64,000 bases of DNA from Trypanosoma brucei (GCA_000002445.1 CP000070.1:224001-288000), one strand, 5' to 3'; positions 1-22,615 are shown, counted from the stretch's first letter. Numbers and translations: made by a program. Notes: generated from the sequence alone by a model not told the origin.

Positions 1-3000
1 GCCAGTGTCCGCGCATCCTTAAATCCTTCAGAGTAAAACATGATTTCAGCAATAAGAGCGTAATCGGGGATCATCATGCAGATGGGACGAAACAGGGCTT
101 TCAGGTTATCTGGAAGCTCGGTACGACCTGCATAACCAGGGTTCATGGTGATAAAAACACCGAAATTCCTGCTCAGTTTGATCATATGCCCGTCAAAGCT
201 CATGCTTTCTAGGCGTTGCGCAAGAGCACTAGTAATATCTAACATCTGCTGCGCCACCACAGAGAGCACCTCTAGTTCAATACGGTTGAACTCGTCAAAG
301 CACGCCCATGCACCCGCCTGCGCTAACCCAGCAAACATACGAGACATAGTCTTGTAGTTGATACCATCAGAACAGTTAAAAACAACAACTTGTCGGGCCA
401 ACGCTTTCCCCAAGTCCTTCACCGACTCGGTTTTGCCTGTACCCGCAGGTCCCTGGGGAGCGGCTCCAAGATTCATTGCCAGAGCGCTGGTACATGTCAG
501 AAATGCACGATCGGTCAGCGGGGTAATTACAAGACGCGGTTGATTCCCAAGATACTCATAACCATACCACAGATGAGCATCGCAGTGGTGGATTCCAACG
601 CTCATGCCAGATTTCACAGAGTCAGTAGCCTCCCAATAATAACGCAGTTGCTGAGCCCAGGCAAAATCACTGAGAGAAGTCACACTGCTCTCATGAAGAG
701 TATACACGATGTCACGATTGTGCACGTTAAGCACAATTAGTGTACAAACAAGCGTCCGTTGCAACTTAGTTAGGGACCCCTTCACCAAATTGACTGTCTG
801 AAAAATTTGTTGCTGGTAATGTTCGTGATACTCCAGTAATGAGCCTGCCCTTATAGCCTCTTCGACTTCTTGGGTCCACACAACCATATCAACCGCCTGA
901 ATACACTGCGCAGGGTGGTTAAAAAACCAGGTTTCACGTGCCTCTGGGGTATACGCCTCAACTGTCTTACGCATATGCATAAGCAACGAGGCTCTCATCA
1001 TACTCTCGATCTGGCACAACCACTTCTCTACATTGCCAATAGGATACACAACTTTCTCAAATTCAACTTCTTCTCCATCTCCAGACATCATCCCCGAAAT
1101 TTCGCTGTATGTATCCCCCGAAAAAATAAGGGATGCTATCGAATCAAAGCATTTGGTGAGATGCGGTTGCACTGCCTTGGGATTACGCACGTCGGAAAGA
1201 ATTGACAACAGTTCGTCGTTTGAGAGGAAGTAGAACCGAGGAAACGCAGCACGCTTCGTCTCGAGACACTCTTCCAGTTTCTTCTGAATGTAATCAATAT
1301 TCAAATTAGCTTGCTGCAGTTGCTCCAGCACACCGTTCTCGGTGCATATCTGGTAAACGTTCTTGTCGTTATGTGCCTTCATTGTCAGCAGACACAACAA
1401 GGTATCCACCGAGCTGAACTGCATACTTTCTTCAGGAAGCTGGGCTTTGATATCGTCTGAAGAAAAAATAAATTCAAGATACATCCAGTTCTTTTGAAGG
1501 TTAGTCCACTCTTCCATAACATTACCTACGTGTCGAAGGTTGCGAATCCATTCCTCCACACGGTCGCGAACCGGTGCAGCAAATCGTGAAGCCATTATCG
1601 TCTGAAGTTCAACTTGATTATCATCCAGTTGCTGGATTACATCTTCTAGAGCATCCAATATGAAAACACCGTCACGGTTTCTGTAAGGTTTGGTGGTGAA
1701 CGAAATCCCGTTCCATGTCTGTTTAATTTTGTCCAGGTCATTGGATATCTTCCACTCACCGGTTGCTAGCCCGACTTGCTCAGATAGTACCTCCTTGTAT
1801 TCAAGAATATTTAGGTCTTGCAAGTTCCGCAAACTCAAACCTTCGTGATAGCGATTATCCGAACCAGTGGCCTCCCTCAAAACAATATTCCAGTGGCTAT
1901 CAGTCATGTGTTTGTTACCACAATCGTGAATAACGGGCATAATCGCTCTGAGTTCTTGAAGTTCAGTTAAAAGATGCTGCCCCACTTCATCTTCATATTC
2001 CTTTTCCTGGACCTGTCTGTTCAGAGCACCGGTGCGCCTTATGAGTTGGTTGACTTCATCCTCCATGGCAGCTGTGTCCAGTTCTCTAACAGGACTATTA
2101 AACCACATTTCTCTTTGTTTCATAAACGTGTCTAAGAGTGTCCAAGCTTCACGGCGGACAAAAACCAAGCTCCTCATTTCTTTGAGAGTAGACCAGTCGA
2201 TTGGAGGCCGATCAAACAGTTTCGCATATTTGGTCAGCTGCGTTTCACTTGCCTGAATCTCGCTGAGCTTCGTATTAAGTTCCGCTAAGTACTGAATTAT
2301 CGGTTCTACGTTCTCCGTTAAAACAACAAACTCGCTGTTGGTAAGAATTTGCTTGATCGTAACGCACTCGTCTTCGACGTTGCACACGCTGTCTTCCAGC
2401 GTTTGAGTATGAAACGGCAAATTTTCTTCGATAAAGGCTTCGGCATGGAGTCGCGCTTCATCGAAGAGAATCTGAAGGGACATTGCCGTACTGACACTAC
2501 CTAGAGTTCTCTCTCTAAGTTGCTTGTCTTCGTCATCCAAAAACTCCACTTGTTGTCGGTCCATCAAATCGCACAAAGCGTCCGCCTGAGCAACAGCAGC
2601 TTCGGTTTCAGTAGTCTCGCTCACGACCTCCTTGTAATGCGCCACATACTCTGCAAACTGGCTCAGTTGACCCGGGCGTTCATTTAGCACCTGGATCTTC
2701 TGCTTGAAATACGAGTGCAGTGAAGAAATGGCCGTCCTCGTAATTTCCCGAAGTGTTGAATCAATTCCATCACGGACAATCCGCATACGAGGCTCAATTT
2801 CTGTCTTGAGCTTTGCTGCGTTAATCCATAACATATTCCCTACAAATGACGCCATCAGAACGCGTAACGTATCTTGTGCATCCTGGATTTTGTCGTACAA
2901 CTTGAACAGGGTAGAGCACGTTAACGGTCTTTCGCCCGTCTCCTCTTCCCATTGCGCCAATATATCGCTCCATTCCCTCTCCAAGAAATGAATGTGAGGG

Positions 3001-4655
3001 AGTGTAACGGCATACGCCTGCATCTTGGTGTTAGCCTGGGCGTAATCGTCGCCAACCAACTGAAGAATACTAGACTGAAGATAGAGCGTGCGTGCGTCAG
3101 ACTCGAGTTCACCTCCTAGCACCCAAAGAGCAGGTGCCTTGGTGAAGTGACCCTTCAGCCGCTTCTGGGAACACAACCGTGTAACCGAACCAGTAACCTC
3201 GATGCATTCGGTGATAAGCTCCGTGCAAAGAGTACGTATAGCCCTCTCAGGTGGATTAAATAACATCTGATCCTCCGTTGGCTGTAACAAAACCTGAAAA
3301 CCAACTGAACGCAGTTCTTGACTGCTCTGGATATGCAATGTGTTATACAGTGTTTTGATCGCCGAAAGGATTACACGAAACACAGTTTCCGATGTAACAC
3401 AGTCCACCATACGAATTAATTGGTCAATTTGTGAGTACTCTACTATACTGCGTTTCAGCTCACGCATTCTTTGTAACTGTTCTCCCCTGGCATCGTGCAT
3501 CGACTTCATCTTACGTTGTGAGCGAAAACTCCCCGACCCTGTAACAATGGCGTTAGCGAGTAGGTACTGCTCTAACGCCTCTTTTGTGTTTATGTCGGGA
3601 ACGTCTGCCTTGCTCTTCATAACTTCAATCAGTTTCATGACACCAGTCTCAATCTTCTCCATACACGCAACGAATGCAGCCGAAGTTTTTTGGCGCTGCT
3701 TCGCCTGCTGCGTCCGAAAGTCCTCGATAGTATAATCGTGCTTTCCCTGCGCCTCGTACAGCACCAATGGATGTGTTGTAAGGTCGTAGGAAGCGTTAAG
3801 AACTTCCAGAATAGGGGTACTGAAAGTGGATTTAGATATGAGTAAGTTCCTTGAAAGCAGCCGCCTCTTGTTGAGAAAGTCCTTAGCACGTACATTTTTG
3901 TACCACCGGAAAAAGGCTTTGTAGACGAGGTATGTCTTGAAGAAGTGTACTTTTCGAAGGACATCAAAAAGCGATGACTCCCGCATCCACTCAGCTAAAC
4001 TAACAACCTCCGAAGGGTGTCCTGGTCGGACATGGACAACCCCTGTTGCACTCATTATGTAGTGCTCCTTCTGCTCCAATCCACGCTTCATAGGGCTAAC
4101 ACATAAATCATAAGGTCTGAATTCGAGTACATGAGGAGCACGACATAAGTATACATATTTCAAATGGCTGCTCGATCCATTGGCTGCAAAAAAAGTTATA
4201 CAATCTTCAGCTGTTTTAAGTTTGCGGATGACGGCTGCATCGTCCGGAGCTACCGGGGGGACTGAGCTCTTGTTAGGTGGCCGCATTGCCCTTTGTATCA
4301 TACGAAGAATCTCACTGTCCTGCTCGTCTAGATGGGTACGCCAAAAGGGCCGGACCCCCGACACAGATTCAGGTTCCATGTGGTCACCATTTGCACCAGG
4401 ACCATTCAACCCTCTCTCACGGCTAAGGCTACTAGCATCACAAACTTTGTTAGCAACAGGAACACCTCCGTGACGCAAGTTATAACGGAAGTTTTCCGGC
4501 TTTTGAAACTCGTATAGCTGCACAGGATCCAACGTTCGATTAATTTCCTTCTCCACTTGTGCAGCAAGATAGGTTTGTGAGACAGTTTTCCCTCTCTCAG
4601 TCGACTGGTATAAGGTCTCAAGAAATTCAGAACTGCTATCCCTCTTCGACTGCAT
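1..4655 (-). CDS. Dynein heavy chain, 5' portion (N-terminal tail/linker through the AAA1 P-loop). Partial: the ORF continues past the window start.
   Basis: Reverse-complement translation from the ATG at 4655 (in-frame TAG 10 codons upstream) is open to position 1. It contains the canonical dynein AAA1 region ...GPAGTGKTESVKDLGKALARQVVVFNCSDGINYKTMSRMFAGLAQAGAWACFDEFNRIELEVLSVVAQQM...HMIKLSRNFGVFITMNPGYAGRTELPDNLKALFRPICMMIPDYALIAEIMFYSEGF (Walker A GPAGTGKT, Walker B CFDEFNRI). It is absent from the ORF track only because it is open-ended. Confidence 0.85.
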   Translation of the reverse strand, partial: MQSKRDSSSEFLETLYQSTERGKTVSQTYLAAQVEKEINRTLDPVQLYEFQKPENFRYNLRHGGVPVANKVCDASSLSRERGLNGPGANGDHMEPESVSGVRPFWRTHLDEQDSEILRMIQRAMRPPNKSSVPPVAPDDAAVIRKLKTAEDCITFFAANGSSSHLKYVYLCRAPHVLEFRPYDLCVSPMKRGLEQKEHYIMSATGVVHVRPGHPSEVVSLAEWMRESSLFDVLRKVHFFKTYLVYKAFFRWYKNVRAKDFLNKRRLLSRNLLISKSTFSTPILEVLNASYDLTTHPLVLYEAQGKHDYTIEDFRTQQAKQRQKTSAAFVACMEKIETGVMKLIEVMKSKADVPDINTKEALEQYLLANAIVTGSGSFRSQRKMKSMHDARGEQLQRMRELKRSIVEYSQIDQLIRMVDCVTSETVFRVILSAIKTLYNTLHIQSSQELRSVGFQVLLQPTEDQMLFNPPERAIRTLCTELITECIEVTGSVTRLCSQKRLKGHFTKAPALWVLGGELESDARTLYLQSSILQLVGDDYAQANTKMQAYAVTLPHIHFLEREWSDILAQWEEETGERPLTCSTLFKLYDKIQDAQDTLRVLMASFVGNMLWINAAKLKTEIEPRMRIVRDGIDSTLREITRTAISSLHSYFKQKIQVLNERPGQLSQFAEYVAHYKEVVSETTETEAAVAQADALCDLMDRQQVEFLDDEDKQLRERTLGSVSTAMSLQILFDEARLHAEAFIEENLPFHTQTLEDSVCNVEDECVTIKQILTNSEFVVLTENVEPIIQYLAELNTKLSEIQASETQLTKYAKLFDRPPIDWSTLKEMRSLVFVRREAWTLLDTFMKQREMWFNSPVRELDTAAMEDEVNQLIRRTGALNRQVQEKEYEDEVGQHLLTELQELRAIMPVIHDCGNKHMTDSHWNIVLREATGSDNRYHEGLSLRNLQDLNILEYKEVLSEQVGLATGEWKISNDLDKIKQTWNGISFTTKPYRNRDGVFILDALEDVIQQLDDNQVELQTIMASRFAAPVRDRVEEWIRNLRHVGNVMEEWTNLQKNWMYLEFIFSSDDIKAQLPEESMQFSSVDTLLCLLTMKAHNDKNVYQICTENGVLEQLQQANLNIDYIQKKLEECLETKRAAFPRFYFLSNDELLSILSDVRNPKAVQPHLTKCFDSIASLIFSGDTYSEISGMMSGDGEEVEFEKVVYPIGNVEKWLCQIESMMRASLLMHMRKTVEAYTPEARETWFFNHPAQCIQAVDMVVWTQEVEEAIRAGSLLEYHEHYQQQIFQTVNLVKGSLTKLQRTLVCTLIVLNVHNRDIVYTLHESSVTSLSDFAWAQQLRYYWEATDSVKSGMSVGIHHCDAHLWYGYEYLGNQPRLVITPLTDRAFLTCTSALAMNLGAAPQGPAGTGKTESVKDLGKALARQVVVFNCSDGINYKTMSRMFAGLAQAGAWACFDEFNRIELEVLSVVAQQMLDITSALAQRLESMSFDGHMIKLSRNFGVFITMNPGYAGRTELPDNLKALFRPICMMIPDYALIAEIMFYSEGFKDARTL

Positions 4656-7600
4656 TGTTTTTTTTTGTGCTTCTTCCCTTGACTAGGAGTTTTCAGTTTT
4701 GTAAAATTTATATCCGATCAAAATGGTGGAGAAAGTTATACACGAATACGCACATACGACGCAAATAATGCAAAAGATACGATGAATGCGCTAACCGCGG
4801 AAGCAAGATCGGCTCCTCGATCCCATTCGGTGGCACAGAGTCACAGACAAGTTTTCATATGCGTCACGTCTGCGCGCAAATGCATGGGGACGGAGACAGC
4901 GTGTAGTAGAGGCAAATGTGGCACGATACCCAGATGAGTAGATAACCACAATGACTCACAGCAAAATAATAATAACTCAAGTGTCCCGATGGCAAAAACT
5001 ATACAAACACAGTTGCAATGACGGCAGAATCACCAAAAGAGAAAAATCACCGCAAATAGATTGATGTGATGCTATAAATCAAATATCCCCTTTGACAAAG
5101 CGATCCAGAGACCGCGCAGTCCGTACACAACCAGCCGTTTTCCCAACATATTCGTCTAAAAATAGGCAAGTGTGCCCAATGCATCAACACGGTAATACTG
5201 TACCAAAGGTTTGCCGTGCTGACTCCATCCTAGTATCACAAACAGTCCAGAAATGCAGTCCTACGATACTTAAATCCTGGCCTACATTGAAGAAACCTAT
5301 AAGTTCATGGCATCGATGCCAACCTTCAAGTATGTCACGTCAACGTAAAATGTGAGCCCAACCAGAGCTGGAGAGTCGGCTTCATCCACTCAAACCCACC
5401 AAACTTCCCAGAAAAGGTCAAAAAAATATACACTAAATAAGCGAGTAACGAACACAATAGATCGCATGGGACCCGCAGAGCTAAAGCAACGGCCCCCAAC
5501 AAAAAAGAAAAAGACAAATACCCCAAACACGCTGCACGGACCAACACCAAACCACTTTCGCTCATTGAAAACTGGGGGAAGCCTGCGACAACTTAGTTTC
5601 CAGCGCAACTGGGAGAAGTAGAACAATGACACTTACGAAAAGCACGTTCTGGTAGGCTCCACCTAGACCAAAAGGGACGCCGATACGTCACTGCTCTGGT
5701 CGGGTGGAGCAGTCCATCGACAATGTGAGGGAAGGGGAGAGGAAATAGGCAACCGTACTTCTCTAGATCCCCTATTCGACAAACTCGGCACTTTAAATCT
5801 CAACGACTGCCTCAGGTGCAATTATCCATTTACAAATGACATTCCACCCACCTGCCATTATCCAACAGTACCTCAGTTGAAGCAAAAAGAACACAACAAG
5901 CAGGTGATCAAGGCACCCAGGAGACACAGTAGACATGCGGAACCCGCAGCACAACGAGAAAACCACAGCGACAATCCCAGGGACCACAACAACTGGAATC
6001 AAGGATCCTCCACCAACCAGCGGAACATCAGCAAGGGACACTACACACTACTAACCTCCGCAAACCACACTCCTCTCACGAATACACATAGCACAGCGGC
6101 ATCGCCTGACCACGCCAGGCGCCTTCCCATGGTGTTGCAACGCAGCGTCATCTTCCACAGTGAGAAATGTCGCAGCAGGACCCTCCGGGAAAGCCGGAGT
6201 GACGTGGTCGAGGCGGTCACACCTAAAGCGGAGCGGACCGTCATACTCGAAATGTGAAACAGTATCACCGACACCGAGGCCCCTAGCCTGGCACTCAGTA
6301 GAGAAAGTGCCCATGACCCCCACCCCTCTTTTTCAGCGCGGAAGCCAAGAACAGCTGACGTCCCAGCGTCAGAAGAATAAGACGGAGGAATACGCCGCCG
6401 GTAAAGGAGGCAGCTCCTCTTGGAGAACTAGCTATTGAATAGAACGGCACAACCGGGTTTTTTGAGGAAGCGAAAACCGTGGAGTGGAACGGGTCCGTCC
6501 GTTCCAGAATGCCACACCCGTAGCAAGAAACGGGACCCTTGCCTCCCGTTGCTGAAAGGACTGATTTGGCTGAGCGAAGAGGCCCGAACAATTGGTAGTC
6601 GCGAGAAGGGGTACGTTGTGAAAGGAACCATTCGGATTCAAGGAACTACTAACAAACTACAACGCAAGGTCCTCCCTAGATTAGTGCGTGTTAGTGGATA
6701 TGGGGTTGCAACCCCGACAAAAATGGGGGCGTCAAAGCGGTGGTACCTAGTGAATTGATTCGGTACTTTTTTGAACTTTTTGAATTTTCTTCGTGGCCCT
6801 GTGTGAGCCCGCTCGTTTCGCTGAAGCTCTCGACTCCAACCGCAAAGAGTGTTCCACGTTGCTGTTAGGGGGGTTCGTGGTCGATAACCCCTTTGTTGTT
6901 AGTATCGCGTGCCTCCATTCACCTTTTGCTTTCTGTGTTAGAGCCCTCACAGTCGGTAGATGGAGCAGAGAACTCCCTGCAACAGGCTCATTCCAAGAAC
7001 GTCTGCCAGCCATTTCAGCAGCCGTTGCAGCCCTATCTCTAATGCTAAGCATTCCGCTCTGTAACTGCATGAGAGTTCCCCTGCTCCGGTCTTGGGTGCG
7101 CAAATCAGCGTGTTGTTTCTATAGAGCAGGGCAGCTGCTCCGGACTTCTCGCCGAGGGACACGGATGTATCAGCCCACAATTCGTAGTGCTCTCGTCGCT
7201 GTGGCTCCTTCACCCTCCGTGCAAAATGCCGTGCAATCCACTTTTCGGAAGCCTCCCTTTTGACGTCGTCAGGGTCATCAGCGCACACAGGCTTTATCTG
7301 CGTGTGAAATAGCGGTCGGCAGCTGTGGCGGAGTGTCGATGTCTCTAGTGGGTGCTCGCGTGGCTCAATGTGGAGGTGGGGGTAGGACCGCATGATGCGG
7401 GAATGTAGGGCTCTGACTGGGTGTTTGCTGTGGTATACTTCCTCAGCACTGCGGCGCAAACATCCGCCTCGTGACTCACACATCAGCATGAATTTCATGC
7501 TGCGCACAAGAGTGGCCGTCTTGAGTGGCAGGAGGTTTGCTTCCAGCAGAGAGTCCTCTTTGCGCGTCCCATGCGGTATGCCGGCTATGATGCGACTACC

Positions 7601-10600
7601 CTTGTGTTGTGCTGCTGCAAGGAGGTCGCGACTTCGTTCCGAAGCGTCCCAGTACCATACCTCAATGCCATACATGGTGTGTGCCTGTAAGAGGTAAAAG
7701 AACCGCAGAAGCTGGTGTGCTTAGCCCTGCGTGAAAGCAGATATTGCTCCTATTTGAAGTAGCTCAGGTCAATTTTTTCGTACTGTCTGTGCAGCGCGCC
7801 CTACCATTTCAGCTGTGGAATAGTATCATAAAGAGAAACTTTTCAAGTTCTTTCAAGTCCCGCCCACACTCCATCGGCGTTTGGCGTGAGCTGTATTCAT
7901 TTCACAGAATCAAAGGATGTGCTTTTCATCTGCGTTACGTAAACTTCCATTAGGTACTCTCAAGACAATGGTGCCACCATGTCCACTTACCTCCGCAGTG
8001 TGTGTTTGATTGTTTCCTTCTTCGTTTGAGGAAGCAGCAGCGTTAGGTTATGTGCCGCTGCTCGACGCTCAACTGCTTCGTTTCCTGTACTGAGCTCAGC
8101 ATGCCCCATTGCGCCGAAGGCTTTTCACCACTGACAAATACCACAACCATACACGATGTTGGTAAGGCGCGGCTAAGGAATCCTGTTTAGTTTGGAAACC
8201 ATTTTGCTGTGCATAAACTTTGTCCAGTCCCTAACTGTTGTGGTGCGAGCTGGGCTTCAGTTATTCTTTCCCTCAATCTTCATGGAGAGCTCGTGAATGC
8301 CACTAGTTCATTTGTATTTTAATATTTCTTCTTCTTACCATCTTTCTGGATATGTAGAGGAACTCCACACTTCCATGCTGTTGGTGCAATTCCTTTCTGT
8401 GCATTCATATTGAACTGTTAAAGCACCAGTATTGGCACTGTGTGATCGAAGTAACGCAGTCACTCTCCGTGCAAGCGATTGTGGGCCGTCACTGAGGTAT
8501 GAAGTGTTTATTTTAGCGATTTTTCGGGTCCATCACTCATTGTTGGTTGGAATTCGGCGGCCTCCGTTTGTCTCAGCGGCTTTGTGTCTGAGCTGCCATA
8601 TATATCTTCTTATGTGATGCACGTGCTGCAACAAAATGTCGGGCCTTCCGAAAATCTCTGATAGCAGCTTCACCTACTGTGAGTGCCGTAATCATTGGGT
8701 GCTTGGCGATCGCAGCGAATAAGCATTCCTGATGCGCCAGTTGCAGCGGTTCTGTACTTCGTCTTGTGTGGGCGGCACGAAACACTTACGGGTCGCGTAC
8801 GGTCCAGCTACTCTCCCACAATGATGTCCAGTTTCTTCCTATTCGACCAATGGCGACACCCCACGATCTTCCTATGAAGGCCAGTAAGCTAAGGCGTCAA
8901 GTGCTGTGGTGTGACTCTGCTCCCTTAGGGAACACCTTCGTCGGTTCCAAAACTTTCGGCGCAGATCAGGTGTTTTTCAAATTCGTCTCTTCATCATATT
9001 CTAACCACCCCACAGAGTCACCAGGCAGGACTGTGAAGTGTTCTCCATTTGGCTTTGATCCATGAGCCTGTGATAGTGCTTTGACGCTAAAGGTTCAGGA
9101 TATCCGTTTTGTTTCGGCAACCATGTTGAAGAACATATGGTGGTGGCGACCACCTGCCTACTACGATGATTTCGCATGTAACGGTCAATTCCTTGACAGT
9201 GGCATATAAGTGTTGCCCTTCCGTGCTGTCGCGTGTGCACGGTGTATTCGGTAGTATTACAGAACGGAAAATTGTTATTTATGCACCACTTTATAAGGGA
9301 CCAATGCCTGGTGTTCGGTGGGGGTTGCGTGATCTCACGCCAAGGCGCATGCATTAGAATTCGTGTCGACATGTTGCGGGCGCCGACCTGCTTTTTGCTC
9401 AAAGGTTGGATATGGTGAGCATACGACGTCGTAGCAGCGGCAATTGGCATCTTTCTAGTTGGTTGCATTCCGGAGTGCACATGCCCGGTGCATTCAATGA
9501 TGGTACCGGCCGCCTCTGCCATCAGATCTTCCCCAGCGAGTGTGTGTAAGTCGCCGCCGTCACGGTTGTAAGCTATGCTATGACGTTGGCGACCGGAAAT
9601 GCTAAAGTGCCCCGGGTTTCTTTTGTCGTCTTTGCTGTCCTCGGCTGACAGAAGACCATCTTTTCGTAATAGAGGTTTTTGCGGAGTATTGATTTCTTTC
9701 CTTTTGGAACTCTGCGCAGTTCCTCCGCTTTTCGCGTGAGGGTAGGCCTGAGTCGTCCTTCGAATCACAGGACGGCGGCACCTCACTCCGGAAAATATTC
9801 GTGACGGCGCGGTACCGCGTTCGCAGTGACTGGGAAGGAAGAAAAGCGGTGCTCTGGCGCGGCACGGCTGGTCCCTCTGCGTTGCCCTGGCATCTGTGGA
9901 CATTTGAAGACGGTGTTCTGTCGGTCCAGAGCCCTATCGGCTGGCGTCTGCCCCTGAAAATGCGAGGTAAGAGAGTGAGCGGCGCCGCGTTGGATGGGTA
10001 GGAGGGTCGCACCATGGAATTGATGTGTGTGATGGCCTTCCTGCCTTAGCCGATTCCAGTGGAGGTTCTCGGAGGTGATGAGTTTTTACTTTCGAACTGA
10101 CTACATGCCGCAGCATGGGCGTTCATCGACCGCTGGACTCTAGCAGCCGTGGGGCGTGCTGATTTCGGGAGGAGCAACAAGTGCCGAAGCCTCCCCGAAA
10201 CATCCTCAGTTCGGGTCGGACACGGCAGCTGCTCCCCGTTCCGGTTGAGGCGTTGCTGCGCTTTCGAATCGTCGGCGGTTAAGGGATTCTAGTCCCACGT
10301 GAAAGAGACCACTTGTCAATACGATCGCCGCCGGTTTCGGCTAACCATTCTGATTGTGCTTTGCAGTGCGTCACTTGCCACGCTACTGCTTCAGAGCGTG
10401 GCTGCTCCGGAAGGGTTTTTGGCGAGCCCCCTGGCGGTTGTTTTCACGCTGGCGTTAATCGGACATGATCCCCCGTTTGTTGTCTGATAACGGAGGTAGC
10501 GAAAGAGCATGTGGCGTCGTCACATGGGAATAAGGGGAGCGGCGCCAGGCATTTTGCTGTGCAAACCCCTCTTTGTTATACAGTTTGCTGTCTCCTTTCC

Positions 10601-11925
10601 CATTGGGGTGCTGATGAAGTGCCGAAGAATGATCTTGTGAGGTAGGGGCGACTTTACTAGTCGGGGGAGGCGTCTGCTCTATTACTCTGGAGGTGTAACG
10701 CGTAAGTTAGGTGGATGTTGGAGCGTATGCTGGTAGTATTTCAATGTGGTGCAAAATTTTTTGTTTTCCTCCAGCGAAGTTATAAGTGCTCCATGAGCGT
10801 GCGGGTTCTGGGGATGTAGGAATCTGTGTGAACGGATCGTGTTTGGATGGGAGTCGCACATTTTCTCTTCGAGAGAGTGTTGGGAGGTTTGCTCCTTTTA
10901 ATTCCCTTTGTCTGAACAGCAGGAGTTTTCTGATTCTTTGTGGCTGGCCTCTTTTGCTCATCAAGTGTTATTATTATTTTTTAAATTTCATCGCCTACGG
11001 TACGTGGACGGGGAGCTGTGCTGATATCACCGCGCTTCCGTGTTTCGCTTCGTACTTGTTTATTGTTTTGCCGTCTTATCACTCTACGAACCGTACCTCG
11101 TGGATGGTGAGCAGTCTTGTTAGCTGCTTCGTTGCCCGAGGTAAAAGGTACGCGCTGCTTTTGGGTCGAGGAAGTCCCTGCGTTAGGGTGATTCACTCAC
11201 GCTGTGTTGGTCGTGAAGATGCGCTTCCGCTGCATTTCTTGGGGCACACGTGTCTGGAAAAGAAATTCCCCCGACTCACTTGATCGTTTGGGCTCCGCTG
11301 TGGTATGTCGCAACACATAACCACGATTTATCCTTCATAAAATATCTTCGTGTCAAGGAATTGAACTCGAAAACACTAAAGGAGGTGCGGAAAATGCTAA
11401 TATACAGTGCTGTTCCGCTTCGTTTGCTCACGTGCTCGCGTGAAGCGGGCCCATATTGCATGCGTGCCAAAACATGGGTTAAGTTGTCGTGTGTTTCGTC
11501 CTTTCCTCTTATCTTGTGCCCTGTCCCACGCTGTGCGACCTTACATTGTGACTGTTGGTTGGATAAATTGGGTATCGTGATTAAAGGAGTGTACCACTCC
11601 TTTCGTAGGTTTACATATGGGCTACTCTTCGCTTTGATGCTGCCCTTTTTCGCTCTTACTGGGCGGTGATTCCCGTGCACTTAGCACCGAAACAATCGTA
11701 TTTCAACATTTGAGAACTAACTCATAAATATAGCTTTTTTGTCCAAGATCGGTCCTTTATTTTTTAATGTTATACAAACTGTTGATTTATTTAAAATATG
11801 AACGGTCATCCCAGTTATCAGAGCTTTTATGCTTGTGCTCGTTGTTAAATTCAGCTCCACCTTTGTTCCAGTCGCTGAAAGGGTATTTCACTCTTCTTAT
11901 TTTCCTCTTTTGGTTAGTAGTAGCG
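4656..11925. promoter_or_regulatory. Divergent strand-switch region between the minus-strand dynein unit and the plus-strand polycistron. Candidate bidirectional Pol II transcription-initiation zone.
   Basis: The minus-strand gene starts at 4655 and the first convincing plus-strand gene starts at 11926. There are no long, non-repetitive ORFs in between. In trypanosomatids, divergent strand-switch regions are the known polycistron start sites. Confidence 0.6.
6947..7675 (-). mobile_element. Degenerate non-LTR (ingi/L1Tc/DIRE-like) retrotransposon remnant. RT C-terminal 'thumb' plus the start of RNase H. The relic probably extends further on both sides through frameshifts.
   Basis: The 242-aa minus ORF begins MYGIEVWYWDASERSRDLLAAAQHKGSRIIAGIPHGTRKEDSLLEANLLPL. 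This matches the conserved non-LTR RT thumb signature YGsEtWtl...R..L.afEm.clRrIlGI.w.drvtNEevl..agl.pL. Its C-terminus, ...ELWADTSVSLGEKSGAAALLYRNNTLICAPKTGAGELSCSYRAECLALEIGLQRL, matches the RNase H N-terminal motifs (YTDGS... GAG... TNNRAELxAxxxAL). Flanking frames contain stops, so the element is frameshifted. Confidence 0.6.
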
Positions 11926-13158
11926 ATGTCTCGTCGGCGTCCTAATGTGATGTTAACTATCCCTAAGAATACGCTACAAGTCTTTGATATGGGGTTAGAT
12001 TTCCGTTCTTACCTATCCCGCGTGGATGTCAATGGACTACCAGTTTTAGGCAATGTCGTATCCTATGAGGCATCAAAACTGACTGAAGTATTTACTCCGA
12101 CTGTAGGGTTGTTAGTGACGATACTGCACATGCTTGCTCATTGCACCTCAAGTTGCTCCGCCGTAGCTTGGCTGAAAGCCTATGATGCCATCCAAAAGAT
12201 GTATATCGAAAATTCAGAGGAAGAAAACACGGAAGCCGTTCGATACGCTGTGGAGGCTAGAGCGGCTATCAAGGATTATTTGACTGGTGACGCTGTACCC
12301 GGTACAAACCTCCTTTGTGAGAAATTGTTGACTCTTCTCGACCAGCAAAGTGGCATCCATGGTTCTCAAGCTCCATCTCAACGGAAGGTCCCGCGGGAAC
12401 CGAAGGGGGCTTTTTGCAACCTACATCTATCGGACCAAAAGTGCTACCAGGATTTTGCTTGTAATCAGCTTCATTTACAAGAAGTGAAGACGGTGCGTCA
12501 CAGGAAGATTTTTTACATGCGACTTATTGAAGTGCTAAAAGCGGAAAAGCGATCTCGCCAGCAAATCCGCCACCGAATAAAGGACTCAGTTTTCTTTGCC
12601 CGATATGGCAATAAGGTTACCGTTCAATGCCAGGGTAAATGGATTCCATTTTTCAAAACAGTTTATACGGACGGAAGGCTAGAGCAGGCGCTTCGAACTC
12701 AGCATTTCGCTTGTGGTGACAGCGCTTGCGCCGACGAAAATTGTCTGGGAATACATCCACAAGACCGGCGCGTTACCACGTCCAGTAAACTGATGGATCT
12801 TAATAACCCCGATGTAGTACTTCAACAGATAGAGGAAGAAGCGGAGCGACACCTGTCGATGGAGGGGGCATTCAACGATCACGAAGCAGAACATATCTCC
12901 GCAGCCGCAAGTTCATCTTCGATGCCTTCGCCTACATCGGAAATGTGGAGAAATACTGTAAGGGAATATGTGCGGCAAACGGGAATCCCACAGGTGGAGG
13001 CCGATGAGTCGTTACTCAGGACACTGCAAGATGCAAATGTCCTGGCCACACCAACGGCCTCAACAGAGAGCTTAACGCCACTCTTAGACGAACTCGATAT
13101 GCGCACGTTCAGCTCGAGCTCTCCGGTCAGAGAGCATCCCAATGCTGAAATAGGGTGA
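11926..13158 (+). CDS. Hypothetical protein, first gene of the plus-strand polycistron. No recognisable domain.
   Basis: Long ORF (track 11767..13158). The first 53 codons are pyrimidine-tract-derived low complexity. The likely start is MSRRRPNV at 11926, preceded by a polypyrimidine tract and AG dinucleotides. Coding-like, non-repetitive composition. Confidence 0.5.
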   Translation: MSRRRPNVMLTIPKNTLQVFDMGLDFRSYLSRVDVNGLPVLGNVVSYEASKLTEVFTPTVGLLVTILHMLAHCTSSCSAVAWLKAYDAIQKMYIENSEEENTEAVRYAVEARAAIKDYLTGDAVPGTNLLCEKLLTLLDQQSGIHGSQAPSQRKVPREPKGAFCNLHLSDQKCYQDFACNQLHLQEVKTVRHRKIFYMRLIEVLKAEKRSRQQIRHRIKDSVFFARYGNKVTVQCQGKWIPFFKTVYTDGRLEQALRTQHFACGDSACADENCLGIHPQDRRVTTSSKLMDLNNPDVVLQQIEEEAERHLSMEGAFNDHEAEHISAAASSSSMPSPTSEMWRNTVREYVRQTGIPQVEADESLLRTLQDANVLATPTASTESLTPLLDELDMRTFSSSSPVREHPNAEIG

Positions 13159-13818
13159 GATGCGTTTTACATAACAGTAATTGTGGGAGCTTACTAAAAC
13201 CTAGAGAACCGAAAATCCGTTTGAATAGCGTGGGATAGATACTGGGGAAGGGCGCAGGTGCACACAACTGCATGGGGCTGCGCATACCTGCAAGCGCAGG
13301 TATCGTTATATACGTATATATATAAATATTTATATATGTATATGGGTGACTATACCACTTTACCAAAAAAAAAAAACAACACAACACAGAACAAAAATAG
13401 TGAAGGAAAAACATGCTTTCATAAGATGATAAGTTTTATCTTAGTTGGAATGAAGGTGGTAAGGTTGTCTTCAAATGATTTTTTTTTTTTGAAGAGAAGG
13501 AATTAACTTTATGGAAAAAAGTCCAAGGAAGTGGTTGAGGGAAAGAGAGTACCCTGATGCATTTATCGGTTATCGACACCCGTATGGTATGGGACGGAAT
13601 CGCAGAAGTATTCCAGAGGAATCAGAGTCATCATTTTTTTTCTTTCGAAATATGATGTTTCAATGATGTCAGGAGCAGGTGAATTTCCCCACGTCACATT
13701 GTGCAGAGCATGAATTGAAAGAGAACTACTGCTCGCATATATCGGATTCTCTGCTGACTGTGCTTCTTCCTTGCTACTATTGTGTAAAATGTGACTAAGG
13801 TTAGTTTAGAAATATAAT

Positions 13819-15264
13819 ATGACCGATATGTTGTTTGCTGTTTTATTGACTATATCGTTGTTGGTGCATGTGTCGTTGGCACTGGACCCTACTTATGGAG
13901 CCCAAGACGCGTATCTTGACCATTTTAAGGGGATTAGTTCCAGTGGAGCGTTCCAGTGTCTTACCGGCAGCAAAGTCATAAAGGGTGATCAGATTAATGA
14001 TGATTTTTGTGATTGCCCCGACGGAAGTGATGAGCCAGGGACATCAGCTTGCACAAATCACTTTACCAAAGTTAAGTTTCCTGACGGGTGGAAATTCAGA
14101 TGTCGCAATATTGGTTTTAAGTCAAAGGAAATACCACACAATAGAGTCAACGATGGTTTATGTGACTGTTGTGACGGCTCTGATGAATATGGCGGTATTG
14201 TGCAGTGTGCTAACATTTGTGCGGAGGTGCAGGAGAAAGAGGCGGAGGAACTTATGCTGGAAAGGGAGAAAATGAAGCTTTCTTTAGAGGAAAAGAAGAA
14301 GATGGTTGAGCAGGCCACAGTCAAACGGGAACAAGATAAAGTTGCTTTAAAAGAAGAGAAAGCAGAGCTGGAAGCGGCGGAAATTTCCCGTGAGCGGATG
14401 TCAAGAGACCTTCCGCCGTTGGAAGACCACGAAAAGAAGGAGAAACAACGCTTATCCGAGGAGTTCAAAATTCTTCAAAAACACATCCAGGAAAATGAGG
14501 CGAATGAGGAGGGCACAAAGTTGAAATATAGGGCAGGCTGCACCAAATGGTACACAACAGTGGACTGTGGTACCAAATCAAGCGTAACAGATGAAAAGGG
14601 ATGTGACGAGCTAATTCCAGGTAACGTGTCTGGTTACTGTGAATGTGCTGAAGCAAAAACAGATGCTACAGTGAAATACCAAAAAAATTGTGACCACAAA
14701 CCTCTTCGCTGTTCATTTGTTTGCAAAACGGCGGGAGAGGAAGGGACCTTGTCAAGCAGTGAGGAGCAATACTTCGATACAACCAATGACCCCTCTTATG
14801 AGTTGCCAGGGGCCAAGAATTTACGGGCAAAAATAAAGGACCTTGACGAAAAAATGGACAATCTTCGGTCCTCTATTGCTGCTAAGGAGGCACGGTTGAA
14901 GAGAAACTTGAATACGGAAGACATAATACGGACACTCGAGGATGAATGCTTCACTCTCGACGTTAAAGTATACACTTACAAATTTTGTCCTTTTAAAGAT
15001 GCTCACCAGTACTCCAAAGGAACTGAAATTGGGAATAGCATAGGGAAATGGGTACGTTTCGGTGAGAGTACCTACTCTTTGTGGTCAACCACCGATGACC
15101 ACACACACATGTTGTACGAAGGGGGTGATTGGTGTTGGAATCATGATCAGCGAACCACGGATGTTCGTCTGGTGTGCGGCCCGGAGAACAAGTTGTTGAA
15201 GGCTGAGGAACCGATATCATGCAAATACGCAATGGTGTTCCAAACACCCGCTATATGCGAGTAA
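13819..15264 (+). CDS. Glucosidase II beta subunit (PRKCSH-like ER lectin subunit).
   Basis: N-terminal signal peptide MTDMLFAVLLTISLLVHVSLAL. Two LDLa-like Cys-rich repeats (CDCPDGSDEPGTSAC, DGLCDCCDGSDEY). Central coiled-coil/acidic region. C-terminal MRH domain (YTYKFCPFKDAHQ...GGDWCWN...RTTDVRLVCGPENKLL...CKYAMVFQTPAICE). Confidence 0.8.
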   Translation: MTDMLFAVLLTISLLVHVSLALDPTYGAQDAYLDHFKGISSSGAFQCLTGSKVIKGDQINDDFCDCPDGSDEPGTSACTNHFTKVKFPDGWKFRCRNIGFKSKEIPHNRVNDGLCDCCDGSDEYGGIVQCANICAEVQEKEAEELMLEREKMKLSLEEKKKMVEQATVKREQDKVALKEEKAELEAAEISRERMSRDLPPLEDHEKKEKQRLSEEFKILQKHIQENEANEEGTKLKYRAGCTKWYTTVDCGTKSSVTDEKGCDELIPGNVSGYCECAEAKTDATVKYQKNCDHKPLRCSFVCKTAGEEGTLSSSEEQYFDTTNDPSYELPGAKNLRAKIKDLDEKMDNLRSSIAAKEARLKRNLNTEDIIRTLEDECFTLDVKVYTYKFCPFKDAHQYSKGTEIGNSIGKWVRFGESTYSLWSTTDDHTHMLYEGGDWCWNHDQRTTDVRLVCGPENKLLKAEEPISCKYAMVFQTPAICE

Positions 15265-15477
15265 ACCGCCTAATAGTCGGTTAATAATTATCACTTTCTC
15301 GTAAGATGCTACCCAACTCCAACTACTCTTGACAACATTCCCTCTGGACCCCTGTACTTTGTAACATCTTCCTCCTCCGAGTTTTTCTTTCCCCCCCTCA
15401 CGTTGTAAATTGGATAGTGTGGAGTAAGGTAGTGTCAGGAGTAGTAAGTGGTATACTTTTCATAGTTTTGTCCACAT

Positions 15478-16962
15478 ATGAATCCGAAGCTGTTCTCGAC
15501 GTACGTAATCGACTGTGTCATACTGTTTCTTTTAGTTCTGTTTGCATTTGGATACCAAACGGTTCGAAATCAAGAGCGTGTTGATGCTCAATTTGAGTTA
15601 GCTGCTTCTCTCTTTGGCGCTAAGGACAAGTCTGCTGGAGCTGAGAAGAGCATAAGTTCCGTGAAAGATTTTTTTACAGTTTTCAAAGGTATAATTGATG
15701 CTTATTATCACATACCGGCTGCAGCAACTGGGACATTCATGCACTATACGTATGGGGTGGGCAATTTCACACCGTTGGTCCCTGTTGTTGAAATAACGTT
15801 TCACGACAGACCGCAGAACTCCCTCGCAAAGGTGCCGCTTGTCTTTTCCTTTGATGTTCAAGCAAGCGATGTACTAGGACCGTTCATAAGTCCTCAAAGT
15901 TATTATTACCAGAATGGCTTTTGTGGAGACGGAGTTACTAGCAGGTTGCGTTATATCCTATGCCAAACCTCATCCACACTGGATGTGTTTGACAACGTCG
16001 ACAAGGTTAAACTCTCATTTCAGCTATATTCCATGAGAAGGTCAGATGACGGTAGGGTGCGCCCTGCGGAATGGGACATAGAGGTGATGTTTGGTATGGG
16101 TGGGTACGGCCCTGTTATTACCATGACCACTTCGTTCAGCAGTATCGAGGAGCGTTTCCCGCAGCGTTTTCCCGTCATGATAAGTTGTGCGGTGGCACCT
16201 CTAGTACTGTTGAGCTTTTTGTTTCGCATGGATAGGATCTCGCAGCTTGTAACATACGTGAAAGTGGTGTTAACTACTTGCAGAAGGAGTCAGTGGTACG
16301 GAAGGTTGCGCCCCGATAATTCTGGTTTGAGAGGTCAGAGTTTTCTTCTGCTTGGTGTTTTTTCTGATATAGTTGCGTTGACGTTCAGTATAACGTCACT
16401 TGTGATTCAGTTTACCCCAAAAGTGAGCGGAACGACGGAGCATGCGTTAACAGTCCTACTCGGGTTCGCGGCTTTCATGCGCTCAACACAGTTGATCTCT
16501 GTGCTGAAGCTCTCACCAAGTCTTTGCGTAGTGGTCGATGGTTTTGTTACTGCTAGTGACCAACTTTTCATGTATGTCGTGGCGGTCTTCCCCATTCTGC
16601 TTGGTTATTCAGTGTGCGGTTTCATTGTTTACGGAAGTTACCAGTCTTACTTCAAAACCGTTCCGTATTCAATTGTTACTCTCATCTGTGCGGCGTTCGG
16701 GGATAACCTGATTGATACATTTGTGGACATGGATAGGGGAGCCTACGTTGTTCAAGTGCTCTTCACCCGTATCTTTTTTGGTTCATTTTTGGCGTTTTTT
16801 ATATGTAATGTGCTCAATGTGGCATACAGTATCATTCAGGATTCGTACAATCAAGCTATCCGGATGCACGGTGCGACATCCAGTGGCACCACTGGTGCAA
16901 ATGGCAGTGGTACTCGTTTAACCGAAGAATTGAGGGAAATATTGGGGAAGTTGAGGGGGTAG
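15478..16962 (+). CDS. Polycystin/mucolipin (TRPP/TRPML)-like multi-pass cation channel.
   Basis: N-terminal TM helix (YVIDCVILFLLVLFAFGY), then a ~200-aa loop and 5-6 further hydrophobic helices. Pore-like region ICAAFGDNLIDTF and terminal helix FFICNVLNVAYSIIQDSYNQA resemble the PKD2 filter/S6 (LGD..., LLNMFLAIINDTY). Confidence 0.5.
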   Translation: MNPKLFSTYVIDCVILFLLVLFAFGYQTVRNQERVDAQFELAASLFGAKDKSAGAEKSISSVKDFFTVFKGIIDAYYHIPAAATGTFMHYTYGVGNFTPLVPVVEITFHDRPQNSLAKVPLVFSFDVQASDVLGPFISPQSYYYQNGFCGDGVTSRLRYILCQTSSTLDVFDNVDKVKLSFQLYSMRRSDDGRVRPAEWDIEVMFGMGGYGPVITMTTSFSSIEERFPQRFPVMISCAVAPLVLLSFLFRMDRISQLVTYVKVVLTTCRRSQWYGRLRPDNSGLRGQSFLLLGVFSDIVALTFSITSLVIQFTPKVSGTTEHALTVLLGFAAFMRSTQLISVLKLSPSLCVVVDGFVTASDQLFMYVVAVFPILLGYSVCGFIVYGSYQSYFKTVPYSIVTLICAAFGDNLIDTFVDMDRGAYVVQVLFTRIFFGSFLAFFICNVLNVAYSIIQDSYNQAIRMHGATSSGTTGANGSGTRLTEELREILGKLRG

Positions 16963-17676
16963 TTTCCTGCCCTTCTTATTCATTGTTGTTGTTGGTGACA
17001 GCAACATCAGGTTTCTTAGGTGATGCGGCTGTGTCTGGTGAGCTCGCAGTCGGTTGCGTTTGCTTCGTTGTTGTTGCCTTGTTGAGTGAGGGGATGCTAC
17101 AAAGCGTCTTATGCGAATTTAAGTGGATGACTATTGCTCATATTTTTATCCTTTCCCTTTTTTGCTCCCTTCCTCTGTTAATTTGTTTTGTTGTGTAATC
17201 TTTTGATACCGTTGTACTATGGTGTTTTGTTTCTAAATTTCTACTCCAATAACGCACTTTTTGCGAAGCTCAGCGAACCCTAGTCGAAACATAAAATCAT
17301 TTTTATTCACCCCATCGAGTTGGCAAGTGCGTTTGCTGCGGTGAGTCGCCATACTTCAACTGCTAAGTTAACACCGAGAGGGAAGAGAGCTAGAGGAGCA
17401 GCATCAGCGCAATTTCACGGATTTAGTGTTGTTAGACACAACCCCTTTTTTGTGTTGCACCCGGCCGTTGCGTGAACGACGCGACGAAAACTCATACAAC
17501 ACAAAACCCTTACCGCAAACAGCAGGCAAATCGGCTGGGGAATAGAAAAAAGGTGTTGTAGCACCTTGTATATATATAATTTGTAGCACGAAAAGTATAA
17601 CGGATCCCTTCAAATAGTGGTGTACCCAAGTACTCCCTTTTCAGGTAGACAATAGTGCATATTTGGTTGTGCATCA

Positions 17677-22019: not shown

Positions 22020-22080
22020 TTTCTGTGTTCTTTTTCTTTTCTTTTTTCTTTTCTTTTTTTCTTTTCTGTTTTTTTTTTTA
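22020..22080. repeat. T-rich (TTTTC/TTTCT)n polypyrimidine tract.
   Basis: ttctttttcttttcttttttcttttctttttttcttttctgttttttttttt. Confidence 0.8.
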
Positions 22081-22542: not shown

Positions 22543-22615
22543 ACCATTATTATTATTATTATTACTATCACTATCACTATTGATTTTATTGTTATTGTTA
22601 TTCTTGTCATTTGGA
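22543..22615. repeat. (ATT)n / (ATC)n trinucleotide microsatellite.
   Basis: accattattattattattattactatcactatcactattgattttattgttattgttatt. Confidence 0.8.

What the first reader, a model, noticed from the sequence alone, without database searches (positions are those of the whole stretch)
6290..7700. Non-LTR retrotransposon fossil (RT thumb and RNase H) on the minus strand inside the strand-switch region
The 242-aa minus ORF 6947..7675 carries the highly characteristic non-LTR RT 'YG.E.W...R.I.GI...E.vL..a.L.PL' thumb motif, followed by RNase H motifs (TGAGELSCSYRAECLALEIGL). Stops and frameshifts around it suggest an ingi/L1Tc-clade degenerate element (DIRE-like). A 118-aa ORF in another frame (6747..7103) and Cys/His-containing ORFs at 6295..6641 could be the frameshifted continuation (RNase H C-terminus, zinc-finger ORF). 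The true 5' extent (APE and RT core, expected at higher coordinates) was not resolved by eye.
Basis: seen in the sequence. Interest (0 to 1): 0.5.

Follow-up and report, generated by a model that had tools for sequence, protein, structure and literature searches.

The report
Dead ingi-type retroposon, partly refreshed
This is the decayed, 3'-truncated remnant of an ingi-family jumping gene (a "DIRE") between two diverging gene clusters on Trypanosoma brucei chromosome 7; it is an ordinary, well-known kind of genomic fossil, and its one unusual trait is that its last 686 bases are a much younger copy of the active ingi element.

Summary
ORF 6947-7675(-) exists and matches T. brucei-group "reverse transcriptase" proteins (E=1e-114). 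It aligns to residues 849-1078 of an intact 1656-aa Tbingi polyprotein. That is the segment after the RVT_1 domain plus the first 61 residues of RNase H.

The element is larger than flagged. nhmmer with a full 5250-bp Tbingi finds one colinear minus-strand fossil at 7005-9973, covering endonuclease, RT and the RNase H N-terminus.

The fossil is a mosaic:
- 7008-7693 is 95% identical to Tbingi copies.
- 7694-9973 is only 42-68% identical, with 19 stops in 402 aligned RT codons, at least four frameshifts and a destroyed FADD box.
- Both junctions are sharp and are present in an independent chromosome-level assembly.

The proposed continuation into 6290-7000 (RNase H C-terminus, zinc fingers, A-tail, TSD) is not supported. 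Protein, HMM, Pfam and DNA-profile searches find nothing there.

The locus is a divergent strand-switch region between a dynein heavy chain gene (minus strand) and the plus-strand cluster starting at 11767. It is not the mapped chromosome 7 centromere.

The best mechanism, which is inferred, is an ancient DIRE partly overwritten by homology-guided recombination with Tbingi and then truncated. This is a known kind of element and of low interest.

The parts
7005..9973 (-). Whole retroposon fossil (TbDIRE-type). It is colinear with positions 39-3243 of a 5250-bp Tbingi. The 5' end is nearly complete and the 3' ~2 kb is missing.
   Evidence: nhmmer of L006:7045-12294 against the 64-kb window gives only two significant hits (E<1e-80; one stray at E=3.5), both minus strand. 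Model 39-1928 maps to 9973-8120 (E=2e-83) and model 2188-3243 maps to 8055-7005 (E=2e-212).
7008..7693 (-). Young Tbingi-like tract: 686 bp, 94.9% identical and gap-free to Tbingi copies, GC 56%.
   Evidence: blastn against L006, L001 and L002. The identity profile is 92-97% inside the tract, 42-68% upstream and 38-45% (background) downstream. Both junctions are sharp. There are 35 differences, 14 synonymous and 21 non-synonymous.
6947..7675 (-). It is the residual open frame of the Tbingi-like tract and starts at an internal Met of the polyprotein. It encodes the post-RVT_1 'thumb' segment, a linker and the RNase H N-terminal 61 residues. Its last ~20 codons run into unrelated DNA.
   Evidence: Between strains it has 7 non-synonymous and 3 synonymous changes. 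Its codon-usage score is intermediate.
7694..8055 (-). Degenerate RT palm C-terminal part. The FADD catalytic box region is destroyed, with 4 stops in 73 aligned codons.
   Evidence: tblastn of P0174 residues 728-800 aligns to 8055-7837 at 37% identity. Residues 811-848 continue into 7807-7694 with 2 stops.
8121..9107 (-). Degenerate linker plus RT fingers/palm N-terminal part. It has 15 in-frame stops in 329 codons.
   Evidence: tblastn of P0174 residues 305-640 at 29% identity, sum E=3e-32. P0079 aligns to 9065-8325 with E=3e-15.
9211..9704 (-). Degenerate AP-endonuclease domain remnant. The catalytic D-N-H motif is lost.
   Evidence: tblastn of P0174 residues 99-268 and ingiA residues 124-260 (E=1e-14). 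BLASTP against the Exo_endo_phos_2 ORF of L006 gives E=5e-10. blastn finds 9186-9357 and 9673-9851 at 67-69% identity to L006.
9001..9903 (-). 300-aa ORF lying over the endonuclease remnant. About 140 codons are in the ancestral frame. It is annotated as a hypothetical protein in two T. equiperdum/T. b. equiperdum genomes.
   Evidence: The stop-free run is longer than in 0 of 2000 local shuffles, but its codon usage resembles spurious ORFs.
3..4655 (-). Context: 5' part of the dynein heavy chain gene, the first gene of the minus-strand cluster. It runs off the window.
   Evidence: A stop-free frame of 1560 codons. The orthologue in L014 is a 4112-aa protein with dynein Pfam domains.
11767..13158 (+). 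Context: first ORF of the plus-strand gene cluster. It forms the right edge of the divergent strand-switch region.
   Evidence: A 410-aa gene is annotated here in the OVI and IVM-t1 assemblies.

Best explanation
The feature is a dead, non-autonomous remnant of an ingi-clade non-LTR retroposon, a TbDIRE. It occupies 7005-9973 on the minus strand of a 7-kb divergent strand-switch region on T. brucei-group chromosome 7.

Shown:
- It retains, in order, a decayed AP-endonuclease, a decayed reverse transcriptase, the post-palm segment and the first ~45% of RNase H.
- It lacks the rest of RNase H, the C2H2 fingers, the 3'UTR, the poly(A) tail and the TSD.
- It is a mosaic. The 5' 2.3 kb is near saturation divergence from Tbingi and full of stops. 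The 3'-most 686 bp (7008-7693) is 95% identical to Tbingi copies, the same as Tbingi copies are to each other.
- The junction between the two parts is colinear to within 6 bp.

Inferred mechanism:
- An ancient DIRE already lay in this strand-switch region.
- A later homology- or microhomology-guided repair or gene-conversion event, using a Tbingi copy or its cDNA as donor, overwrote the thumb/RNase H segment.
- The 3' side of that event, or a later deletion, joined it to unrelated DNA at 7008 and removed the remainder of the element.

The 242-aa ORF is simply the still-open part of the young tract. It encodes no complete domain and has no demonstrated function.
For: Family identity:
- phmmer, tblastn and nhmmer hits.
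- Homologues carry Exo_endo_phos, RVT_1, RNase_H and zf-C2H2 domains in the expected order.
- The reference copies have Tbingi hallmarks: 5250 bp, poly(A), a perfect 12-bp TSD, an intact 1656-aa ORF, and the ingi4 target motif at 7-8 of 10 positions. These match the published descriptions (PMC2323293, PMC3820030).

Decay:
- 19 stops in 402 RT codons, at least four frame changes and loss of the FADD and D-N-H motifs.
- The whole window has no other copy, no LTR-like repeat and no tandem array.

Mosaic:
- The stepwise identity profile and sharp junctions.
- Tbingi copies are 94-95% identical to each other along their full length, so the tract is a normal family member while the rest is not.
- GC is 56% in the tract against 49.6% in the old part, matching the published ingi and DIRE values.
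- The 300-aa ORF of the old part has no relative above 33% identity among 1.84 billion representative proteins.

Not an artefact:
- T. b. equiperdum IVM-t1 chromosome 7 is colinear with window 1-19909 at 99.1%.
- A T. equiperdum OVI contig crosses the 7693 junction.

Context:
- Retroelements are known to accumulate in strand-switch regions (PMC1868937, PMC4748587).
Against: - The gene-conversion step is inferred from present-day sequence only. The old part is now too diverged (~55-60%) to support classical homologous recombination, so the event needs microhomology or an earlier date.
- The donor and the pre-event sequence are unknown.
- I could not compare the syntenic locus in T. congolense or T. 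vivax.
- The 76-79-bp 5' signature that defines ingi-clade elements is not recognisable.
- Absence of the old element's 3' part downstream of 7005 cannot be fully proven. At this divergence a poorly conserved C-terminal region might be undetectable.
- The 'thumb' label rests on position relative to RVT_1. The AlphaFold model was weak (pLDDT 62) and Foldseek gave no significant match.
Confidence: 0.85

Rival explanations
1. Two independent events. A Tbingi copy retrotransposed by target-primed reverse transcription into or next to an older DIRE. It was 5'-truncated at what is now 7693, and a later deletion removed its 3' 2 kb with the poly(A) and TSD.
For: Non-LTR insertions are commonly 5'-truncated. 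ingi-clade elements cluster in strand-switch regions. The tract is of ordinary Tbingi age.
Against: - The young tract continues the old element at the homologous position, in the same orientation and frame, with only a 6-bp offset. That is very unlikely for a random insertion.
- No poly(A), TSD or ingi4 target motif is present.
Confidence: 0.15
2. Chimeric cDNA. Reverse transcriptase started on a Tbingi RNA, switched template at a homologous position to a transcript of an already diverged DIRE lineage, and the hybrid inserted as one unit.
For: - It explains the colinear junction together with a near-complete 5' end reaching model position 39.
- Template switching is a general property of reverse transcriptases (established knowledge).
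Against: - The 3' end is internal (model position 3243) with no A-tail or TSD.
- It requires an expressed, already stop-ridden DIRE RNA.
- No second copy of such a hybrid exists in the loci examined or in the protein library.
Confidence: 0.07
3. The 242-aa ORF, and/or the 300-aa ORF, is a domesticated host gene derived from the retroposon and is kept open by selection.
For: - Both ORFs are annotated as hypothetical proteins in independent genomes.
- The 300-aa ORF is stop-free far beyond local shuffles, 0 of 2000.
- The fossil core diverges less between strains than synonymous sites do.
Against: - Between strains, non-synonymous to synonymous counts are 7:3 (ORF242) and 4:1 (ORF300), which is neutral.
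- Neither ORF contains a complete domain, and the catalytic motifs are lost.
- The ORF300 codon-usage score of 0.020 is below every 300-codon window of real genes and equal to spurious ORFs.
- There are no orthologues outside the T. brucei group.
- The region with the lowest divergence is the stop-saturated RT part, which cannot be coding.
Confidence: 0.04
4. One reading: the element continues downstream, with ORFs 6747-7103 and 6295-6641 being the frameshifted RNase H C-terminus and zinc-finger region, ending in an A-tail near 6.3-6.8 kb.
For: The expected domain order of ingi-clade proteins places the RNase H C-terminal half and C2H2 fingers 3' of the ORF.
Against: - tblastn with P0141, P0174 and 13 other homologues (E<=1), a family HMM (model positions 310-617) and three-frame Pfam scans find nothing below 7004.
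- nhmmer with the full Tbingi finds nothing there either.
- Identity to Tbingi drops to the 38-45% background.
- The 118-aa ORF merely overlaps the tract in another frame.
- The Cys/His pattern in 6295-6591 does not fit C-X2-4-C-X12-H-X3-5-H (direct reading of the sequence).
- There are no A-runs of 7 or more on the minus strand in 4683-7010.
Confidence: 0.03

Closest known systems
TbDIRE (degenerate ingi/L1Tc-related element of T. brucei)
   Same: It is ingi-clade by homology and is riddled with stops and frameshifts. GC is about 49.6% (published TbDIRE value 48.7%). It is single-copy, cannot transpose, and lies in a strand-switch region, as described for DIREs (PMC1868937, PMC2323293, PMC3820030).
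   Different: It is only 2.97 kb rather than about 5 kb because the 3' 2 kb is missing. The 5' 76-79-bp signature is not recognisable. It carries a 686-bp tract at Tbingi-level identity, which I did not find described for DIREs in the papers read.
Tbingi (ingi4 subclade, the 5.25-kb potentially active retroposon of T. brucei)
   Same: The 7008-7693 tract is 95% identical to Tbingi copies, and Tbingi is the closest relative of every part of the fossil. The domain order is the same (APE, RT, RNase H).
   Different: This is not a Tbingi copy. There is no intact ORF, poly(A), 12-bp TSD or ingi4 target motif, and 77% of the fossil's length is only 42-68% identical to Tbingi.
L1Tc and T. cruzi DIREs
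   Same: They belong to the same clade. T. cruzi hypothetical proteins match the RNase H N-terminal motif region at 33-40% identity.
   Different: They belong to a different species and subclade. The similarity is much weaker than to Tbingi and is restricted to 7007-7471.
Centromeric strand-switch domains of T. brucei (Obado et al. 2007)
   Same: [quoted passage not shown]
   Different: There is no AT-rich repeat array anywhere in the 64-kb window. The mapped chromosome 7 array lies between Tb927.7.6860 and Tb927.7.6870, far from this locus (orthologue DPX39_070020900 at ~0.49 Mb).

Membership tests
Non-LTR (APE-type LINE) retrotransposon | AP-endonuclease domain N-terminal to the RT | tested here: met
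   9704-9211 aligns to residues 99-268 of P0174, whose Exo_endo_phos/Exo_endo_phos_2 domains span 90-295. BLASTP against the L006 endonuclease ORF gives E=5e-10. The catalytic motifs are decayed.
Non-LTR (APE-type LINE) retrotransposon | Reverse transcriptase (RVT_1) domain | tested here: met
   9107-7837 aligns to P0174 residues 305-800, which include RVT_1 at 563-805 (sum E=3e-32). The window translation itself gives no direct Pfam hit. The FADD box is destroyed.
Non-LTR (APE-type LINE) retrotransposon | 3' poly(A) or A-rich tail and target-site duplication; no LTRs | tested here: not met
   There is no A-run or TSD, and homology ends at model position 3243 of 5250. There are also no terminal repeats: the self-BLAST of the strand-switch region found nothing. 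The failure is explained by 3' truncation.
ingi clade (ingi/L1Tc) | Conserved 76-79-bp signature (Pr77) at the 5' end | tested here: not met
   The first 131 bp of the L006 Tbingi give no alignment above shuffled controls anywhere in the window. The nhmmer alignment begins at model position 39 with weak identity.
ingi clade (ingi/L1Tc) | Closest relatives by RT and RNase H sequence are ingi-clade elements; single polyprotein with C-terminal RNase H and C2H2 fingers | tested here: met
   The best hits are Tbingi-type proteins of the T. brucei group, followed by T. grayi, T. theileri, T. congolense and T. vivax ingi proteins. The RNase H N-terminal half is present. The C2H2 region is absent from this copy.
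[quoted passage not shown] | Long ingi-related element inactivated by many stops, frameshifts and deletions | tested here: met
   19 stops in 402 aligned RT codons, at least four frame changes, ~220 bp of internal deletions and a 2-kb 3' truncation.
Tbingi (active family) | High identity to other copies along the whole 5.25 kb, a long ORF (~1650 aa), poly(A), a 12-bp TSD and the ingi4 target motif | tested here: not met
   Only 7008-7693 reaches 95% identity. There is no long pol ORF, no poly(A) or TSD, and no ingi4 motif at the predicted 5' end. The reference copies do meet all of these features.
   The position fits: it aligns to P0174 residues 849-~950, just after RVT_1 ends at 805. The AF2 model is helical for residues 13-97 but has pLDDT 62, and Foldseek against the PDB finds no hit with E<0.19. 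phmmer alignments of P0174 to R2 and LINE-1 ORF2p stop at residue 827.
RNase H domain | Complete RNase H fold with the D-E-D-D catalytic residues | tested here: not met
   Only the part equivalent to P0174 residues 1018-1078 of the 1018-1155 Pfam RNase_H match is present. The first Asp and the Glu are retained. The FSDSLS Asp motif and everything after it are missing.
T. brucei centromeric domain | AT-rich tandem repeat array next to DIRE/ingi in a strand-switch region | tested here: not met
   TRF finds only short poly-pyrimidine and ATAT runs in the 64 kb. The published chromosome 7 array is elsewhere.

The most novel reading that the evidence does not exclude
The fossil is not inert. The ancient DIRE core of this divergent strand-switch region may be maintained at the DNA level, for example as part of the transcription-start, chromatin-boundary or replication-origin architecture. 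It may also be repeatedly patched by gene conversion from active Tbingi copies.

Three hints point this way:
- Inter-strain divergence of 7694-9973 is about 3.5-fold below synonymous sites and about 5-fold below the flanking spacers.
- A 310-codon stop-free frame in the endonuclease remnant is reached by no shuffle.
- Identity to Tbingi is stepped (95% / 60-68% / 41-56%), suggesting more than one conversion layer.
Probability: 0.1. Interest if true: 0.5.

Novelty: already known. Interest (0 to 1): 0.15.

Why it matters
It matters mainly for annotation.
- The 242-aa and 300-aa 'hypothetical proteins' called at this locus in T. equiperdum and T. b. equiperdum genomes are retroposon debris, not host genes.
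- The 686-bp Tbingi-identical tract is a repeat that breaks short-read assemblies. The OVI contig ends inside it.

Biologically, the locus is one more example of retroposon remnants sitting in trypanosome strand-switch regions. The mosaic gives a concrete, datable case of sequence exchange between an active ingi family and a dead relative. If such exchange is general, it would affect age estimates for DIREs and would show that dispersed ingi copies act as recombination donors inside core chromosome regions.

Tried and rejected
- Direct Pfam scans found nothing. This covered the seven ORFs in and around the finding and all three minus-strand frames of 5401-11700. Domain assignment had to go through full-length homologues.
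- A PDB sequence search with the ORF found nothing.
- Structure prediction of the ORF gave a weak model (pLDDT 62). Foldseek against the PDB gave only non-significant EndoV-like matches. The structural route to the 'thumb' label led nowhere.
- The Rfam gathering scan and the tRNA scan of the window were empty. No HDV-like or Pr77 ribozyme family was hit.
- The Tbingi 5' signature was not found in the window.
- Literature full-text searches for three signature strings found no paper.
- Exact-protein look-ups for four window ORFs found no record, so the window's own strain could not be named. It is 99.66% identical to T. equiperdum OVI and 99.14% identical to T. b. equiperdum IVM-t1.
- Assembly artefact was considered and rejected on the basis of the two independent assemblies.
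- A centromere was considered and rejected.
- A coding role for ORF300 was considered and provisionally rejected on codon usage and pN/pS.

Full report
**Origin of the window.** The 481-aa ORF at 13819-15264 is an exact match to a T. equiperdum OVI protein. That contig aligns to window 7616-25262 at 99.66%. The chromosome-level T. b. equiperdum IVM-t1 assembly (chromosome 7, CM010678.1, 484-505 kb) aligns colinearly to window 1-19909 at 99.14%. The window is therefore Trypanosoma brucei-group chromosome 7.

**Genomic context.**
- All ORFs of at least 200 aa from 11767 onward are on the plus strand.
- A 1560-codon open frame on the minus strand runs from 4682 off the left edge. It is the dynein heavy chain gene.
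- The region contains no tandem or AT-rich arrays.
- It is not the mapped chromosome 7 centromere, which lies between Tb927.7.6860 and Tb927.7.6870 (PMC1868937).

**The observation.** ORF 6947-7675(-), 242 aa, exists. It has no direct Pfam or PDB hit. A search of 5.8 billion proteins gives E=1e-114 to 'reverse transcriptase' of T. b. equiperdum, E=1e-49 to 'Tbingi protein' of T. grayi, and weaker T. cruzi hits. Longer homologues supply the domain frame:
- P0141 (967 aa) has RVT_1 at 70-312 and RNase_H at 526-663.
- P0174 is an intact 1656-aa polyprotein. It has Exo_endo_phos at 90-295, RVT_1 at 563-805, RNase_H at 1018-1155 and C2H2 fingers near 1402-1532.
- The window aligns to P0174 residues 811-1078 at 7807-7007.

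The ORF is thus the post-palm segment, a linker and the first 61 RNase H residues. The 'thumb' label fits by position but could not be confirmed structurally.

**What the reference family is.** The T. b. equiperdum copies in L006 and L013 show the following features:
- They are 5250 bp long and end in poly(A).
- The L006 copy has a perfect 12-bp TSD, TTCTCACAATGC.
- They encode a 349-aa endonuclease ORF and a 1138-aa RT/RNase H/zinc-finger ORF.
- They are 94-95% identical to each other over their full length.
- They are preceded by the published ingi4 target motif at 7-8 of 10 specified positions (motif from PMC3820030).

These are the published hallmarks of Tbingi: 5.25 kb and a 12-bp TSD (PMC2323293).

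**True extent of the element.** nhmmer with the whole Tbingi against the 64-kb window gives only two significant hits, both on the minus strand and colinear (one stray hit at E=3.5):
- Model 39-1928 maps to 9973-8120 (E=2e-83).
- Model 2188-3243 maps to 8055-7005 (E=2e-212).

At protein level the map is as follows:

| Window coordinates | Part | Identity to Tbingi protein | Decay |
|---|---|---|---|
| 9704-9211 | endonuclease | 30% | D-N-H motif lost |
| 9107-8121 | linker and RT N-terminal part | 29% | 15 stops in 329 codons |
| 8055-7837 | RT C-terminal part | 37% | 4 stops in 73 codons, FADD box destroyed |
| 7807-7007 | post-palm segment to RNase H N-terminus | 87% | none inside the 242-aa ORF; 2 stops in 7807-7694 |

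The frame changes at least four times. The 5' 76-79-bp signature is not detectable.

**What is not there.** Homology stops at 7005-7008. The searches that found nothing below 7004:
- tblastn with 15 homologues.
- A family HMM covering the RNase H C-terminal half and beyond.
- Three-frame Pfam scans.
- nhmmer with the full element.

There is no A-run and no repeat shared with the 5' flank. Those ORFs score like other spurious ORFs of the strand-switch region.

**The mosaic.** A global alignment to Tbingi shows three identity levels:
- 92-97% in 7008-7693.
- 42-68% in 7694-9900.
- 38-45%, the background level, below 7008.

Both edges are sharp. The 5' edge is colinear with the old element to within a 6-bp gap, in the same frame. 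Other properties of the tract:
- It is gap-free over 686 bp, with 35 differences (14 synonymous, 21 non-synonymous; pN/pS 0.47). That is what is expected between copies descended from different active masters.
- GC is 56% in the tract and 49.6% in the old part, matching the published ingi (52.3%) and TbDIRE (48.7%) values.
- The old part is unique. Its 300-aa ORF has no relative above 33% identity in 1.84 billion representative proteins.
- Both junctions are present in IVM-t1, and the 7693 junction is present in OVI, so this is not a misassembly.

**Mechanism.** The structure and the two ages are shown. The cause is inferred. Colinearity argues against an unrelated insertion. I favour repair or gene conversion of an ancient DIRE from a Tbingi donor, with an estimated probability of 0.55-0.6. 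The 3' end would have been resolved by joining to non-homologous DNA, or followed by a deletion. The alternatives are a 5'-truncated Tbingi insertion followed by deletion, or a template-switched chimeric cDNA.

Nothing suggests a current function. The ORF encodes no complete domain, and between strains it has 7 non-synonymous and 3 synonymous changes.

**Comparison with the known.** DIREs and ingi elements in T. brucei strand-switch regions are well described, and the literature states that they have been annotated genome-wide (PMC1868937, PMC2323293, PMC4748587). This fossil meets the DIRE definition. It fails the Tbingi definition and the centromere definition. The only feature I did not find described in the papers read is the Tbingi-identical tract inside a DIRE.

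**Verdict.** The feature is ordinary and of low interest.

Noticed in passing
window 9001-9903 (-): The 300-aa ORF over the decayed endonuclease remnant is stop-free for 310 codons. The other two frames carry 10 and 12 stops, and the adjacent RT remnant has 15 stops in 329 codons. None of 2000 local dinucleotide shuffles reaches this length. However, its codon-usage score of 0.020 equals that of spurious ORFs, and the inter-strain changes are 4 non-synonymous to 1 synonymous. This is unexplained.
   Followed up: partly
window 4656-11766 versus L014: Substitution density between the window strain and T. b. equiperdum IVM-t1 is very uneven:
- 17/kb in both spacers next to the first genes.
- 13/kb in the Tbingi-like tract.
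- 3.5/kb in the old DIRE part, with only 2 substitutions in 1307 bp at 7694-9000.
- 12.4/kb at synonymous sites of five flanking genes, for comparison.

The cause was not resolved. It could be constraint, local genealogy, or a lower mutation rate in the untranscribed core.
   Followed up: partly
window 7371-7382: Five of the nine inter-strain substitutions in the Tbingi-like tract fall within 12 bp, changing HLH to YIC in IVM-t1. This looks like a micro-conversion or a complex mutation. The window allele matches the Tbingi consensus.
   Followed up: no
L003 (T. equiperdum OVI contig CZPT02001196), position 1 = window 7616: The short-read OVI contig ends inside the 686-bp Tbingi-identical tract. 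This is consistent with the tract acting as a dispersed repeat that breaks assemblies.
   Followed up: yes
L001 8118-20064 (T. b. equiperdum chromosome 6, 844-866 kb): Three rearranged Tbingi-type copies form a large inverted or palindromic arrangement whose arms are 98.6-99.7% identical to each other but ~94% identical to other copies. The arrangement lies next to a RESC7 gene. It may be a recombination or centromere-associated structure.
   Followed up: no
protein cluster of P0157: A Schistosoma mansoni 'LOW QUALITY PROTEIN' (Smp_186480, XP_018644078.1, on a 13-kb contig) sits in the same 90%-identity cluster as T. brucei ingi endonuclease fragments. This most likely reflects trypanosome DNA contamination of that assembly.
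   Followed up: no
window 7094-7134: A 42-bp segment encoding AAALLYRNNTLICAPKT-type residues is present in the window, L006, L013 and T. grayi, but is deleted in all three chromosome 6 (L001) copies. This marks those copies as a sub-lineage.
   Followed up: partly
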